Virus record (IMG/VR): IMGVR_UViG_3300026116_000006 | Length of the DNA stretch: 64,000 nt | Strand: one strand, 5' to 3' | Origin: an uncultured virus (IMG/VR IMGVR_UViG_3300026116_000006) | Taxonomy: Duplodnaviria > Heunggongvirae > Uroviricota > Caudoviricetes | Shown: positions 49,061 through 55,347 of the stretch, piece after piece | How the letters are laid out: the number at the start of each line of letters is the position of its first letter | Position numbering within the stretch: position 1 is the stretch's first letter | Translations under genes and position numbers: made by a program | The notes under the pieces: generated by a model | The model's database searches: none | What the model saw: only the letters and a program-made list of their open reading frames with translations | Told to the model about the DNA's origin: nothing

Positions 49061-49975
49061 TCAGCTCGTCGGGAAGGTCCCCCAGATCGAACGCCAGTTG
49101 TAGTAAGCAAAACTGTAGCGCTCATACCCCTTCACCAGCAGATTGTCGGTGAAGAAATCCACCTGCATGTCGGTCTCGAACGGGATGCGCACCATGTACG
49201 ACAGGCCGTCGATATTGGTGAGCAGGAACCACGCGAAGAACGACGTGAGGAAGTCGTTGACGATGTAACCCTCGGTTAATCCACCTGCGGTTGTAAAAAT
49301 TGCGTTCGTATCATTATCGCTTGTACCGGGGCGCAGCTCCGTCTTGGTCAGTCGGATCGCCACAGGCTCCAGCTCGGGCGGGATGACGAGCTTGCGCGCA
49401 CGCGCGAACTGCTTCAGCCCAGCCTGATCCTTGAAGTTGCGGCGGATCGAGATCATCGCATTGAGCAGCGTCGCCTCGTTGAGGTCGACGTCGGTGCTCG
49501 GGCGATTGGCAATCGTGCCACCATCGATCGGATGGTTGGTGGCCATCAAGGCCACGCCGTCGCCGCCGATGTAGGCGTTGTAGACGTTGCCCGTGTTGAG
49601 CACGTTCGCGCCGTAGATCTCCTTGGTCTGCTGGAAGCTCTCCATCAGGCCGAGGTTCGACGGGTGGAACTGGCTCTTGTAGAGGTTGTCGTCGATCGCC
49701 TTGCGAGTCATCGAGTACCCGAGGCCGATCTCGATGTGCTCTTGATTGTAGATGAAGCGCTCGCCGGCCGCGTTGTCGAACGCGGTCTGGCCGCCTTCGG
49801 TCTTCAGCTGGGCGAGGCCGAGGTAGCGCATCTCGGCAGTGCGCTCGAGAGCCATCTTCGACGTGTGGGTCGTGAAGATCTTGTCGTACTGCGTCGGGAT
49901 CTGCTCGTACTTGCCTTCGATGCCTCGAAGGCCGGGCAGGAGCAGATCGCGGATGGCGGAAAGATTGACGGCCAT
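49061..49975 (-). CDS. major capsid protein
   Basis: LLLPGL, K.EGG...FD, GYSMTRKAIDDNLY, GDGVAL...HP, KLVIPPEL, ERYSF....WR. Confidence 0.85.
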   Translation of the reverse strand: MAVNLSAIRDLLLPGLRGIEGKYEQIPTQYDKIFTTHTSKMALERTAEMRYLGLAQLKTEGGQTAFDNAAGERFIYNQEHIEIGLGYSMTRKAIDDNLYKSQFHPSNLGLMESFQQTKEIYGANVLNTGNVYNAYIGGDGVALMATNHPIDGGTIANRPSTDVDLNEATLLNAMISIRRNFKDQAGLKQFARARKLVIPPELEPVAIRLTKTELRPGTSDNDTNAIFTTAGGLTEGYIVNDFLTSFFAWFLLTNIDGLSYMVRIPFETDMQVDFFTDNLLVKGYERYSFAYYNWRSIWGTFPTS

Positions 49976-49990: not shown

Positions 49991-50620
49991 TTACGAGATA
50001 CCAACCGGCCCGGCGCCGTTGGACCGCATGATCTCGTTGTTGAAACCGACGATGACCCAGTTGAAGGCCGTGGTTGGGTCAGCCCCGTTCGAGCCCGGCG
50101 GATCCGTGACGAGATCGACCACGCGGAAGGGGAAGGTGACGGTGGTGCCGAGCGAGTTGAGGAACGCGCCCGACTGCTGGGTGGAGGCGTTGCCCGTGCC
50201 GATGGCGAACTGGGCGTATTGCATCAGCGGGCTGCTGGTGAAGCTCGACAGCGAACCGGTGATGTTGAAGGTGGTGGAGTTGCCCTGGACCACGAACTGG
50301 GCGTTCGGGTCATCGAGGACATAGGCTTTGACGTCGTTGGTGGCGTCGCTGCCCGGCCAGTAGTTCATCCAGAGCGTGCGCTTCTGGCTGGTCGACAGGT
50401 ACTGGCAACCCGCGAAGATCCCGGCCAGGGTCGTCGTCCCTGGTGCGCCCTGGGTGATGTACCCGTTGGCGGTGCCGATGACCGGCATGACCGGATCGCC
50501 GCGATAGATCGCGGTCGTGTTGCCGGAGGCAATCCGATATTCGTGGGTGGAAAAGCTGCCATCGCCGCCAGAGCCGACGCGATAGCTACGGAAACCGAAG
50601 GGGGCGTTCGTGTTCGCCAC
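49991..50620 (-). CDS. capsid-associated protein
   Basis: GTG start (MANTNAPFGFR) with GAGGAG RBS; IY.GDPV, GIF.GC.Y, DDPN..F.VQ. Confidence 0.75.
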   Translation of the reverse strand: MANTNAPFGFRSYRVGSGGDGSFSTHEYRIASGNTTAIYRGDPVMPVIGTANGYITQGAPGTTTLAGIFAGCQYLSTSQKRTLWMNYWPGSDATNDVKAYVLDDPNAQFVVQGNSTTFNITGSLSSFTSSPLMQYAQFAIGTGNASTQQSGAFLNSLGTTVTFPFRVVDLVTDPPGSNGADPTTAFNWVIVGFNNEIMRSNGAGPVGIS

Positions 50621-50626
50621 GATCCA

Positions 50627-50699
50627 CTCCTCACTGAGGAGCATCGTGGCCGCACACCGGGGCGCCTTGATGCAGTAAAGGCTCCACGCCGGGGGAGCC
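50627..50699 (-). promoter_or_regulatory. structured 5' leader: two hairpins with CCCGGYGT loops plus an RBS-sequestering hairpin
   Basis: GGCTCC-CCCGGCGT-GGAGCC; GCATC..GGCGC-CCCGGTGT-GCGGCC..GATGC; CTCCTC-AGT-GAGGAG. Confidence 0.55.
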
Positions 50700-50721: not shown

Positions 50722-50919
50722 TCACTTCGTTCTTGTCAACTTTGTGAGTTTCAGCGTTGCGCGCAGGAGCTTCAAAACGCGCGGCGGGGCGCCGTTTTTC
50801 TCCCACCGCCAGACCGTGACCCGGTCGACGTCGAGCGATTGCTGAACCGCTCGACGCCATCCGGTGGCACCGTAAAGCTCGATTGCGAGCTGCCGGAACT
50901 CGTTCCGGCCTAATGCCAT
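50722..50919 (-). CDS. small Cro/XRE-like HTH protein
   Basis: 65 aa, WRRAVQQSLDVDRVTVWRWEK; starts 1 nt after the TROVE stop. Confidence 0.75.
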   Translation of the reverse strand: MALGRNEFRQLAIELYGATGWRRAVQQSLDVDRVTVWRWEKNGAPPRVLKLLRATLKLTKLTRTK

Positions 50920-50920
50920 G

Positions 50921-52333
50921 TTAGCGGGCCTCCACCTCACGCAGGTAAGTGAAAATCCCCTCGGAGAAACCGTCGATATGGATCCACTGCTCACCGTAAC
51001 CAACGCCGTTCTGCGCCGATGCAACGTTGATCATATAGGCTGAGCCGTGGAACTTCGACGGCATCGCGCCAAGATGCGCCTGCTCATCCGTGATCACCAC
51101 CAAGCGGTCATAGCGATACTGCTTGTTGGCCTTCGCAAGCGCCTGGGCGAGATAGGTTCCACCATGGCTCTGCGAACCGATGATCGCCTCGACCCCCGCC
51201 ATCCCGCGCCGAGGCGGCACCTCGACGATGCTGTTGGAGAACGAGCAGATCGTGACGTCGCCGGGGAACACTGCCGCCAGCGTGGCCGCCGCGTCCATGC
51301 GGGTCATGTCGGACTTACCCGAGAGCTTCTCCTTCATCGACCCAGACACATCGACCAGGATCAACGTATGCCCACGAAACTCGGGCATCTCGTCAATCGA
51401 CGCCAGCAATGCCTTGTCGAGATGACGCTCGAAAGTCGGTGCTGCACGCGCCGCCGCGATGTAGCGGAACGGCAGCACCCACTGCGCCCCCTTGCGCGCC
51501 TGGATCGCCGCAATCACGAGATCACGATCGACCCCCGCCTCATGCATGTTGCGCAGGTTGCGCAGCAGCGCAAGGTAGCCGAGCTTCTCCTCCTCGAGGA
51601 GCCGCGTAAACGTCGCCTTCTTATCCTTCCCGGCCGACAGGTTCGTCTCCCAGGTATCCGGGATCTCCAGGCCCGGCTCACCCTTGAGGCGCAACGAACG
51701 GATCGAGAAGCCGCTCTTCAGCTTCTTCGGGAAGAACGTCTTGTTCACCAGCTTGGCGAACATGACCGCCTGCTCGCGATCCTCCGGCTTGGTATGGCTG
51801 AGGAAGATCACGTCGCGCAGCTTGACCGGCGTGTCGCGATTGTACTTCGCGAGCTGATAGGCATCGAAGCGCTTGATCGCGGCATTGAGGCCAAGCTTCA
51901 GCTGCTTGGACAGCATCCGACGACCGTCGCTCTTCGGATTGAACTTCCAGTACATCGCCACCAGCTCGCTGATCTCGTCGGCGCGCCGCACGACCTGAGC
52001 GATCGTGTTGGAGGCGAGATTGCTGAAGCCCTGACCACGGGCGCGCTTGATCAACGTCACCAGCAGAAGCAACGGCACATGGCGCAGCTTGAACTGCACG
52101 CGCGCCTGGATGGCCATCGCCGCGAGGTCGCGCGGATCGACCTTCTCGGCCAGACGCTGGATACGCTTGGCGATCTCCTCGCCGTCCTCATAGAACTCAT
52201 CCTCCCACAGGAGGCAGCTCATGACGGAGCGCTTCAGCTGATCCTTGAAATTGATGGCGACAGCGTGCGCACCCTCATGCGTGCGCAGGTTCGAACGGGC
52301 GGCCCAGCCACCCGACACATTGAGCCGAGACAT
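50921..52333 (-). CDS. rsr: Ro60/TROVE-domain RNA-binding protein (Rsr-like) with vWA domain
   Basis: SCLLWEDEFYE, LRHVP, RRADE, FDAYQLAKY, TWET.LS, ALLRNLRN, LPFRY, MIDAS VDVSGSM, VITDEQ, GFSE; ATG 52333 has a GAGGAG RBS. Confidence 0.95.
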   Translation of the reverse strand: MSRLNVSGGWAARSNLRTHEGAHAVAINFKDQLKRSVMSCLLWEDEFYEDGEEIAKRIQRLAEKVDPRDLAAMAIQARVQFKLRHVPLLLLVTLIKRARGQGFSNLASNTIAQVVRRADEISELVAMYWKFNPKSDGRRMLSKQLKLGLNAAIKRFDAYQLAKYNRDTPVKLRDVIFLSHTKPEDREQAVMFAKLVNKTFFPKKLKSGFSIRSLRLKGEPGLEIPDTWETNLSAGKDKKATFTRLLEEEKLGYLALLRNLRNMHEAGVDRDLVIAAIQARKGAQWVLPFRYIAAARAAPTFERHLDKALLASIDEMPEFRGHTLILVDVSGSMKEKLSGKSDMTRMDAAATLAAVFPGDVTICSFSNSIVEVPPRRGMAGVEAIIGSQSHGGTYLAQALAKANKQYRYDRLVVITDEQAHLGAMPSKFHGSAYMINVASAQNGVGYGEQWIHIDGFSEGIFTYLREVEAR

Positions 52334-52360: not shown

Positions 52361-52489
52361 ATCGGGCAACAGGGTGAAACGGCAACGTAGGCGCTCTATC
52401 CGCTGAGCTACGGATCTCACGACCCGGAGGGATTCGAACCCCCGACCTCCCGCTTACAAGGCGAAGTAACCGTCGCTAACAGCACCGAC
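52361..52489 (-). ncRNA. Y RNA 1 (YrlA-like), permuted tRNA mimic with Thr(UGU)-like anticodon arm
   Basis: GGTGCTGT..CGGTTACTTC / TGTTGCCC frame; TTCGC-CTTGTAA-GCGGG, T arm GGGGG-TTCGAAT-CCCTC, CGGGTC-GTGA-GATCCG, D arm TAGCTCAGCGGATAGAGC. Confidence 0.85.
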
Positions 52490-52518
52490 ATTACGCAACG
52501 CGAACGCAAGACATCGAT

Positions 52519-52652
52519 ATGGGCAACAGACGAAACCGGTATGAAGGTTGGACTCGAACCAACGACCTCCGGGCTATCGACCCGGCGCTCTACCGCTGAG
52601 CTACTCGCCCTGTAGTGTGGTGAGCGAAGTAACCGATCTCTGACAGCACCAT
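52519..52652 (-). ncRNA. Y RNA 2, tRNA mimic with a different permutation point
   Basis: Same outer frame; TTCGCTC-ACCA..GGGCGAG acceptor-like hairpin, D arm TAGCTCAGCGGTAGAGC, CCGGG-TCGATAG-CCCGG, T arm GTTGG-TTCGAGT-CCAAC. Confidence 0.8.
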
Positions 52653-52663
52653 CTTTACCTCAC

Positions 52664-52748
52664 GCCTGGGCAACAAGCGCTTGCGGTTTGGACCGAAGTC
52701 CATCGTTCAACCAATGTACGAAGTAACCGCTTGCAAACAGCACCAAGC
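52664..52748 (-). ncRNA. Y RNA 3, short form without tRNA-like domain
   Basis: GGTGCTGT..CGGTTACTTC..AACCGC..TGTTGCCC with a GGAC-TTCG-GTCC hairpin. Confidence 0.75.
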
Positions 52749-52754
52749 CCGGCG

Positions 52755-54656: not shown

Positions 54657-55133
54657 TCACCAGATCGTATCAGGAGCTGGTATTGCCATGTGAATGCTCT
54701 TCTCGTTGACCATGCGGCAGAGCACACCATTCACCTTGAGTGCCCAACCGTCCGAAGCGCGCACCGCTATCCATTGGCCCGGTTCAAGTTTTGCGCCGCG
54801 CGATTCATGCTCGTCATTGACCATCGGCCCGACCTTGATGATCAGTCCGACCTTGCCCTGGTACTCGTCTTCGCCCGTGGTGTTGTCGGTGAGATGGATG
54901 CCGCCCTTCGTCACCTTCGGCCGCTCGTAGATCGCGTAAAGCACGTAGGTGTTGAAGACATGGATCTTCCCGATGTCGCCCAGCTTCTCGAGCAGCAGCT
55001 CGGCCGGATCCTGGTCGTGCTGCATCCGCATACCCATGGGCTTGCGCGTGCCTGCGCGCTTGAGATTGCCCTGCAGATGCGTGCCGGTCTTCGGGAAGGG
55101 TGTCACGTTAGCGGCGGCGGTTTTTCTCGGCAT
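54657..55133 (-). CDS. GroES/Cpn10-like co-chaperonin
   Basis: KVTKGGIHL...GKVGLIIKVGP...CRMVNE; start may be 55037. Confidence 0.8.
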   Translation of the reverse strand: MPRKTAAANVTPFPKTGTHLQGNLKRAGTRKPMGMRMQHDQDPAELLLEKLGDIGKIHVFNTYVLYAIYERPKVTKGGIHLTDNTTGEDEYQGKVGLIIKVGPMVNDEHESRGAKLEPGQWIAVRASDGWALKVNGVLCRMVNEKSIHMAIPAPDTIW

Positions 55134-55347
55134 CTTCTCCTCGTCCTGCCGTTTGAAGTTCAGAGACGCTCTCGTCGAGTGCCTCGAGTGCATCCTGCAG
55201 CCCCTTGATGATGCCGCAGTGGTATTTGTACGCAGCGAAGTCGGGCATCATGCCGTCAGAGACGGAGACGCCTTTCTCATTGATGAGCTTCCTGACCTTG
55301 CGCTTGAAATGATCCTCGAGCGCTTCGTTGAAGGTGATTGCGGCCAT
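55108..55347 (-). CDS. small conserved head-module protein
   Basis: DFAAYKY.CG.IKGL..ALE. Confidence 0.7.
   Translation of the reverse strand: MAAITFNEALEDHFKRKVRKLINEKGVSVSDGMMPDFAAYKYHCGIIKGLQDALEALDESVSELQTAGRGEDAEKNRRR

What the first reader, a model, noticed from the sequence alone, without database searches (positions are those of the whole stretch)
52361..52489. Y RNA 1 keeps a canonical Thr(UGU) anticodon stem-loop: possible anticodon-nuclease decoy
Seen: TTCGC-CTTGTAA-GCGGG has a textbook C32 U33 TGT A37 A38 loop, followed by a variable loop, T arm, acceptor closed by GTGA, and D arm. All four arms are present, opened between the D and anticodon arms. It has no free CCA end, so it should not be chargeable. 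Known: several anti-phage effectors (PrrC, RloC, PARIS AriB) cut tRNA anticodon loops. Inference: an unchargeable Ro-stabilised mimic could decoy such nucleases or tRNA-modifying enzymes.
Basis: partly seen in the sequence, partly recalled or inferred. Interest (0 to 1): 0.75.

Follow-up and report, generated by a model that had tools for sequence, protein, structure and literature searches.

The report
Phage Y RNA with anticodon arm
Beside its gene for the ring-shaped RNA-binding protein Ro60, this phage carries a small RNA gene that rebuilds a threonine tRNA's anticodon arm on a body with no amino-acid-accepting end, a feature kept in many related phage and bacterial RNAs, and it likely serves as bait for tRNA-cutting enzymes, which is untested.

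Summary
Observation confirmed, with one correction. 52361-52489 (-) is a YrlA-like Y RNA just upstream of a phage Ro60 gene. Its hairpin before the T arm, published as a 'variable arm', is an anticodon stem-loop. In 296 Ro60-linked relatives found without specifying the loop, 135 have tRNA spacing and 121 of those a canonical loop (3.3 expected). Pairs 27-43 and 28-42 form with the bases after the D arm (133 and 134 of 135), so the RNA is opened at 28|29, not between the arms. Rejoined, the arm is an exact tRNA-Thr(UGU) arm (112 of 120 loci). The Thr anticodon is not conserved: 37 anticodons occur. Position 37 tracks position 36 as in tRNA, repeatedly on the tree. In one genus position 34 drifts like a neutral site. 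So the loop's shape and 36-38 side are selected more than codon identity. The feature is as common in bacterial chromosomes. Competitive inhibition by YrlA is already proposed in print, the anticodon arm was not found in print, and one published test argues against cleavable decoys. The scan has noted this family on other DNA before. Decoy role about 0.4.

The parts
52361..52489 (-). Y RNA 1, YrlA-like, circularly permuted tRNA-like domain on a Ro60-type handle (ends approximate)
   Evidence: Rfam YrlA 37.2 bits; terminal stem in fold; contigs from rhizosphere RNA libraries span it
52464..52489 (-). 5' handle strand: GGUGCUG...ACGG and conserved GGUUACUU; likely Ro60-binding module
   Evidence: shared by the three Y RNAs of the window and by relatives; Ro60 binding inferred from PMC4201824
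52449..52463 (-). anticodon stem-loop positions 29-43: C29 G30 C31, loop CUUGUAA (anticodon UGU at 52458-52456), G39 C40 G41 G42 G43
52444..52448 (-). class I variable loop 44-48 (AGGUC)
   Evidence: sequence; G46 in 132 of 135 relatives
52427..52443 (-). T arm 49-65
52411..52426 (-). acceptor hairpin, 6 bp closed by a GUGA tetraloop, no CCA
52393..52410 (-). U8 A9 and D arm
52390..52391 (-). C27 C28, top two pairs of the anticodon stem, pairing with G43 G42; chain then leaves into the handle (opening 28|29)
   Evidence: covariation 133 and 134 of 135; equal change counts on the tree, 13/13 and 39/39
52361..52389 (-). 3' handle strand (CCGU pairs with ACGG; CUGUUGCCCGA pairs with the 5' end)
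50921..52333 (-). Ro60/Rsr gene, 470 aa (TROVE + vWA)
   Evidence: Pfam PF05731, PF13519; phrog_850; PDB 9L5Y/9KOP E 4.7e-25
52518..52653 (-). Y RNA 2: same handle grafted two pairs into the acceptor stem of a tRNA-like core (GAU in a non-canonical loop)
   Evidence: Rfam tRNA 48.4 bits at 52545-52605; pairing read from the sequence
52664..52750 (-). Y RNA 3: same handle, no tRNA core
   Evidence: sequence and fold

Best explanation
This is a YrlA-like Y RNA gene beside a phage Ro60 gene whose tRNA-like domain includes a complete anticodon arm assembled from two distant pieces, and it likely acts, held by Ro60, as a non-decoding tRNA look-alike that occupies enzymes attacking the anticodon arm. 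Shown: the gene, its link to Ro60, the composite arm (27-28 from behind the D arm, 29-43 from behind the handle), its identity to real tRNA-Thr(UGU) arms, and selection on loop shape and on the 36-38 side across the family. Inferred from the family's literature: Ro60 binds the handle and stabilises the RNA; host TruB/Dus modify the elbow. Inferred from sequence only: the U36-A37-A38 or G36-G37 signatures let host t6A or m1G enzymes modify position 37; the handle leaves the stem at 28|29 as a side branch; tRNA-cutting effectors bind the arm and are slowed, broadly by loop class rather than by one codon.
For: 121 of 135 canonical loops vs 3.3 shuffled. G36 goes with G37 in 32 of 36, other bases with A37 in 82 of 85; on a Ro60 tree of 104 rows G36 changes 25 times and G37 24 times, and of 20 independent pairs about 16.5 go the same way and none the other (p 1.5e-5). 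U36A37 or G36G37 in 101 of 121 loops vs 281 of 598 ARAGORN tRNAs from the same loci; U36AAU in 39 of 121 vs 55 of 598. Commonest anticodons are GUU (18), UGU (15), UGG (9), GCU (8); AriB cuts Lys, Thr(UGU), Asn(GUU), and weakly His and Pro(UGG) (PMC12409363, passages); P2-OLD prefers Thr(UGU) with a paired CNG and A37 (PMC12445682, passages), which the window's composite stem has. Salmonella's rsr-yrlBA-rtcBA operon is induced by anticodon-cleaved tRNA and its authors propose YrlA as a competitive inhibitor (PMC7790460, passages). The phage has no tRNA gene and no RtcB or PF09414 ligase to counter tRNA damage otherwise.
Against: No binding or protection data. In P2-OLD tests, extra host tRNA-Thr gave little or no protection and phage tRNAs worked by replacement, not competition. 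The window has G39 where AriB needs U39. The CNG motif is rarer in the family than in tRNAs (29 of 121 vs 241 of 598). In 94 Streptomyces loci position 34 changes 24 times (four-fold sites of Ro60: median 17, 95th percentile 30) and has their base make-up, so no diversifying selection was shown. Lys(UUU), the classic target, is rare (3 of 121). Chromosomes carry the arm as often as phages. 161 of 296 relatives lack the 19-nt spacing, and Salmonella YrlA has no such loop. The isolated RNA is not predicted to fold as a cloverleaf.
Confidence: 0.4

Rival explanations
1. Structural mimicry only: the arm is kept so that the RNA folds, is modified at 37 by host enzymes and resists decay, while its job is to tether Ro60 to PNPase or another partner at the elbow (RYPER-like).
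For: Positions 32, 33, 36-38 held while 34 drifts neutrally in Streptomyces. 101 of 121 loops carry t6A or m1G signatures, stricter than real tRNAs (Gln/His G37 11 of 13 vs 17 of 52; host lineage not controlled). YrlA is with Rsr and PNPase in Salmonella; phage phiLo Ro60 and its Y RNAs form complexes with host PNPase and slow it (PMC12135203, passages).
Against: A stable tetraloop would cap the hairpin more cheaply, as it does on the acceptor stem. A34 is scarce (6 of 121 vs U34 47) as in real tRNA sets. The window's arm equals a real tRNA-Thr arm. Many YrlAs work without the loop.
Confidence: 0.27
2. Sensor or fuse: the loop is meant to be cut; the nicked, Ro60-held RNA signals to RtcR, recruits RtcB, or ungates Ro60.
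For: Nicked tRNA is the preferred RtcR ligand (PMC10159003, passages). An RtcB-family ORF lies within the fetched flanks of 10 of 58 chromosomal and 4 of 178 viral loci. Y RNA gates Rsr in D. radiodurans.
Against: This complete phage has no RtcB match. Salmonella YrlA was not cut by its anticodon nuclease, though it lacks the loop.
Confidence: 0.12
3. Relic or repeated copying: the arm is left over from tRNA genes and refreshed by recombination with them, without a function of its own.
For: Positions 29-65 of the window match a real tRNA-Thr at 36 of 37 bases; positions 28-42 equal the Thr(UGU) arm in 2 of 5 alphaproteobacterial genomes. Anticodon CUU goes with A44 in Streptomyces (12 of 16 vs 8 of 60; kinship not corrected), which may mean recombination.
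Against: In Streptomyces the anticodon switches among CAU, GAU, CUU and GUU on one backbone whose stem differs from the host tRNAs of those anticodons. U33 and A38 never change in 94 rows while synonymous sites change a median of 17 times. 21 of 121 loops have class II anticodons on a 5-nt variable loop (the scans only partly covered long spacers).
Confidence: 0.08
4. Stored two-piece tRNA: RNase P and CCA addition open the acceptor, giving a chargeable tRNA that replaces cut host tRNA-Thr.
For: M. smegmatis YrlA is cut by RNase P and receives CCA in vivo, and its published sequence has a C32 U33 UCU A37 A38 loop. 73 of 121 relatives have 7 or more acceptor pairs.
Against: The window has 6 pairs and a GNRA loop, and G2-C71 rather than the G1-C72, C2-G71 of Thr tRNAs (26 of 40 Thr tRNAs in the fetched loci start GCC). 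Acceptor pairs do not track the anticodon, and CCA is encoded at 74-76 in only 7 of 121. The handle and Ro60 sit on the anticodon stem.
Confidence: 0.06

Closest known systems
YrlA Y RNAs with Ro60/Rsr (Rfam RF02553; Chen et al. 2014 PMC4201824, parts 1-3 of 5 of the text and supplements 1 and 3 read; Wang et al. bioRxiv 10.1101/312249, passages and sections 7-8 read)
   Same: Next to Ro60 on the same strand; 5'/3' stem; YUAY; T arm, closed acceptor, D arm in that order; several Y RNAs per locus.
   Different: Those papers call the hairpin before the T arm a variable or class II arm and take the handle stem as the anticodon stem. Here it is an anticodon stem-loop completed by bases 27-28. Five of the 11 rows of their seed alignment show the loop with no structure annotated there. 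Score below Rfam's cut-off; strict GNCGAAN0-1G motif absent.
Salmonella rsr-yrlBA-rtcBA operon (Hughes et al. 2020 PMC7790460; PMC10159003; passages read)
   Same: Ro60 and YrlA tied to tRNA damage; competitive inhibition of an anticodon nuclease proposed.
   Different: Salmonella YrlA lacks the anticodon loop and was not cut; this phage has no RtcB.
Thermus phage phiLo Ro60 with Yrl1/Yrl2 (PMC12135203, passages read)
   Same: Phage Ro60 with upstream Y RNAs; the only solved relative found.
   Different: Works through host PNPase; the paper has no mention of anticodon or tRNA-like domains.
Phage tRNAs that overcome PARIS AriB and P2-OLD (PMC12409363, PMC12445682, passages read)
   Same: Thr(UGU) anticodon arm as the contested site.
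   Different: Those are chargeable, cleavage-resistant replacements; this RNA has no CCA end and could only compete or signal.

Membership tests
YrlA (RF02553) | within 4 kb of a Ro60/TROVE gene, same strand | tested here: met
   27 bases upstream of the start at 52333
YrlA (RF02553) | T arm, closed acceptor stem, D arm in permuted order with tRNA invariant bases | tested here: met
YrlA (RF02553) | stem from 5' and 3' ends and YUAY before the hairpin | tested here: met
   UUAC at 52469-52466
YrlA (RF02553) | GNCGAAN0-1G motif near the 5' end | tested here: not met
   absent in all three window RNAs; present in 11 of 296 relatives; GCUGUUAG stands in its place
YrlA (RF02553) | Rfam gathering score 69 bits | tested here: not met
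   37.2 bits, model positions 24-84 only
YrlA (RF02553) | bound by Ro60; modified by TruB and DusA | not testable with these tools
   shown for Salmonella and M. smegmatis RNAs only
tRNA-Thr(UGU) gene | anticodon arm 27-43 and variable loop of a Thr tRNA | tested here: met
   the rejoined pattern lies inside an ARAGORN tRNA-Thr in 112 of 120 metagenome loci
tRNA-Thr(UGU) gene | colinear cloverleaf, 7-bp acceptor with Thr identity pairs and 3' NCCA | tested here: not met
   permuted, 6 bp plus GUGA, G2-C71; ARAGORN finds none
AriB (E. coli B185) substrate | U36-A-A-U39-C40 | tested here: not met
   window has G39; motif in 22 of 121 relatives
P2-OLD substrate | paired CNG at 28-30 and 40-42 plus A37 | tested here: inconclusive
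   bases present (C28|C29 G30; C40 G41 G42; A37) but the chain is not continuous at 28|29, the published Site 1
anticodon-nuclease decoy | binds or inhibits a tRNA nuclease and protects host tRNA | not testable with these tools
   no assay available

The most novel reading that the evidence does not exclude
Y RNA 1 is a built-in 'pre-nicked' tRNA-Thr(UGU). The wider family would then be an RNA-based anti-defence and antitoxin system whose handle displays interchangeable tRNA parts. Against it: the same handle is grafted two pairs into the acceptor stem in Y RNA 2, so the offset may be junction geometry, and CNG is rarer in the family than in tRNAs (29 of 121 vs 241 of 598).
Probability: 0.12. 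Interest if true: 0.88.

Novelty: new variant of a known kind. Interest (0 to 1): 0.6.

Why it matters
What the tRNA-like domain of bacterial Y RNAs is for has been open since 2014. The solved and tested Salmonella RNA happens to lack the loop, so the arm was read as a variable arm. Showing that about 4 in 10 relatives carry a selected anticodon arm points to anticodon-reading proteins as partners and gives a clean test (loop swap, nuclease competition, t6A/m1G mapping). If the decoy reading holds, it is an RNA-based counter to tRNA-cutting defences and toxins, used by phages and bacteria alike.

Tried and rejected
Conserved Thr identity: rejected (37 anticodons). Phage-specific feature: rejected. 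Diversifying selection on the anticodon: not shown; 24 changes at 34 and at 35 lie within the range of synonymous sites. Copying from host tRNA genes: rejected for Streptomyces. Acceptor identity matching the anticodon: none. A conserved partner gene other than Ro60: none; the best is RtcB in 14 of 236 loci with 2.5-3 kb flanks. Sigma-70 promoter scan: 0 sites. Family-level pattern search around Bradyrhizobium gave mostly chance matches, 2 apparent Y RNAs among 41 rows, not used. My count of unpermuted-core Y RNAs (1 of 569 units) missed the window's own Y RNA 2 and is not reliable. Expression: contigs of four rhizosphere RNA libraries cover the Y RNAs, but no DNA run or silent control was laid, so this shows presence of a close strain, not transcription; uncovered stretches mean nothing. 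A role of t6A37 in PrrC cutting is recalled and was not found in the paper checked. Two reviews (Sim 2018, Sim 2020) were not held.

Full report
Setting. The window is a complete 68.6-kb phage record with a major head protein at 49061-49975. A 470-aa TROVE/vWA protein, Ro60, is encoded at 52333-50921 on the minus strand; its best named relatives are in Brevundimonas and Caulobacter phages at 56-58% identity, which suggests but does not show an alphaproteobacterial host. Three RNA genes sharing one handle (GGUGCUG...GGUUACUUCG...CUGUUGCCC) lie upstream; the finding is the one nearest Ro60. The phage has no tRNA gene, no RtcB and no PF09414 ligase match.

Observation. Rfam YrlA matches the T-acceptor-D part at 37.2 bits, below its cut-off of 69. 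Energy folding of the isolated RNA does not give the cloverleaf (z 0.62).

Family sample. I searched viral contigs and bacterial genomes with patterns that fix the handle motif, T loop and D arm but not the hairpin. Of 455 unique hits, 316 had a Ro60 match on the same strand; the other 139, many with only short flanks, were dropped. Clustering at 90% left 296 (224 viral, 72 chromosomal). The spacer from motif to T arm peaks at 19 nt (135 of 296), the tRNA distance from position 30 to 48. Of these 135, 121 have U33, purine 37 and pairs 30-40 and 31-39, against 3.3 (max 9) in shuffles, which do not correct for kinship. The share is alike in viruses (92 of 224) and chromosomes (29 of 72). In the 18-nt class 38 of 64 show a loop one register earlier (no null run).

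Where the RNA is opened. Positions 43 and 42 pair Watson-Crick with the two bases after the D arm in 133 and 134 of 135, through four pair types each, but with the motif's UU in 2 and 59; the change counts on the tree match (13/13, 39/39). Position 41 pairs with the motif's last C in 116 of 135. So the handle is grafted into the anticodon stem at 28|29. As an independent check, the window's pieces put back in tRNA order match 121 metagenome stretches, and in 112 of the 120 loci returned the match lies inside an ARAGORN tRNA-Thr. Positions 28-42 also equal the Thr(UGU) arm of 2 of 5 alphaproteobacterial genomes tested.

What is selected. The anticodon is not conserved: 37 kinds among 121, and at least 80 changes on a Ro60 tree of 104 of these rows (17 left out for short proteins or shared loci). 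Position 37 follows 36: G36 with G37 in 32 of 36, others with A37 in 82 of 85, and 16.5 of 20 independent pairs agree with none opposed (p 1.5e-5). U36A37 or G36G37, the signatures of t6A and m1G modification (established knowledge, not tested here), make up 101 of 121 loops against 281 of 598 tRNAs from the same loci. For a close-range view I searched 401 genomes of the genus of L191 (record title Streptomyces): 138 matches in 134 genomes, of which, counted by eye, 111 have CAU, GAU, CUU or GUU. I fetched 100 of the first 108 matches, leaving out 8 (three register-shifted, two on another backbone including a G36G37 loop, one near a contig end, two from one contig) and the last 30; 94 had a usable Ro60 gene. 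On that tree 33 and 38 never change, 32 once, 36 and 37 five times, 34 and 35 24 times each; four-fold sites change a median of 17 times (95th percentile 30). Position 34 has the base make-up of those sites (C 55, G 35, T 3, A 1), while 35 is A or U in 87 of 94. The stems differ from the host tRNAs with the same anticodons, so the switches happen in place. The loop's shape and 3' side are under purifying selection; the wobble base is close to free there, although across the wide sample A34 is scarce (6 of 121).

Not a decoder. The window's acceptor has 6 pairs, a GNRA loop and no Thr identity pairs; across the family acceptor pairs do not follow the anticodon and CCA is encoded in 7 of 121. 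The caveat is M. smegmatis YrlA, which is cut by RNase P and receives CCA and whose published sequence carries a UCU loop.

Mechanism. Something reads this arm as a tRNA anticodon arm. The candidates are tRNA-cutting effectors and position-37 modifying enzymes. For effectors: the commonest loops overlap AriB's targets; P2-OLD prefers Thr(UGU) with a CNG pair and A37 and first cuts at 28|29, the point where this RNA is opened; and the Salmonella operon answers to tRNA cleavage, with competitive inhibition already suggested. Against: extra host tRNA-Thr did not protect from P2-OLD, the window lacks AriB's U39, CNG is depleted in the family, and Y RNA 2 shows the same two-pair offset in a different stem. 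I put decoy or inhibitor at 0.4, structural mimicry for a PNPase-type tether at 0.27, sensor at 0.12, relic at 0.08, stored tRNA at 0.06.

Expression. Contigs from four rhizosphere RNA libraries cover the Y RNA array in a close strain with an unchanged anticodon among the listed differences; contigs cannot show transcription and no DNA control was laid.

Known versus new. Ro60-linked YrlA RNAs in phages are known since 2014, and the inhibitor idea is in print. I did not find the anticodon arm described: searches, and the text read. Chen 2014 and Wang 2018 call it a variable or class II arm, and 5 of the 11 rows of the 2014 seed alignment show it unannotated. Two reviews were not held, the bioRxiv supplements were closed and figures cannot be seen, so a mention there cannot be excluded. 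Two YrlA features are not met (strict 5' motif, Rfam score), so I file it as a YrlA-like variant. Earlier notes of this scan reach the same family reading on other DNA and describe Y RNA 2; my reading was noted before seeing them and they are not counted as evidence.

Noticed in passing
window 52518-52653 (-): Y RNA 2 uses the same handle, grafted two pairs into the acceptor stem (66-67 from behind the T arm, 68-72 plus ACCA from behind the motif, CCA enclosed in a loop); C4-G69 and GAU suggest a tRNA-Ile origin (recalled identity rule), but its loop has C33 and G38.
   Followed up: partly
window 52664-52750 (-): Y RNA 3 has the handle with two small hairpins and no tRNA parts.
   Followed up: no
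L595-L694 (Streptomyces-genus loci): Anticodon CUU goes with A44 (12 of 16) and CAU/GAU with C44 (52 of 60), nine bases apart; allele exchange or epistasis. Nine or so matches have C37, and one has an amber CUA anticodon.
   Followed up: partly
Ro60-linked loci, handle units without T or D arm: 28 of 271 such units show an in-register anticodon-like hairpin (6 expected, max 15 in shuffles).
   Followed up: partly
sample: 134 of 401 genomes of one genus carry this Y RNA type, so it is a common chromosomal gene there and a tractable test system.
   Followed up: partly
window 50680-50686: Contigs of all four RNA libraries that cover the head-gene region stop here, upstream of the ORF ending near 50620 (-); a weak hint of a transcript start, no DNA control.
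   Followed up: no
window 54657-55193 (-): GroES-like co-chaperonin gene (PF00166, phrog_3188) in the head-gene region.
   Followed up: no
window 50722-50937 (-): 71-aa ORF overlapping the Ro60 stop codon, helix-turn-helix-like by eye, no Pfam or PHROG match.
   Followed up: partly
L188, L195, L068, L101: RtcB (14 loci), WYL-domain regulators (4), Rnl2-type RNA ligase (3) and HNH nucleases (5) recur near Ro60/Y RNA loci.
   Followed up: partly
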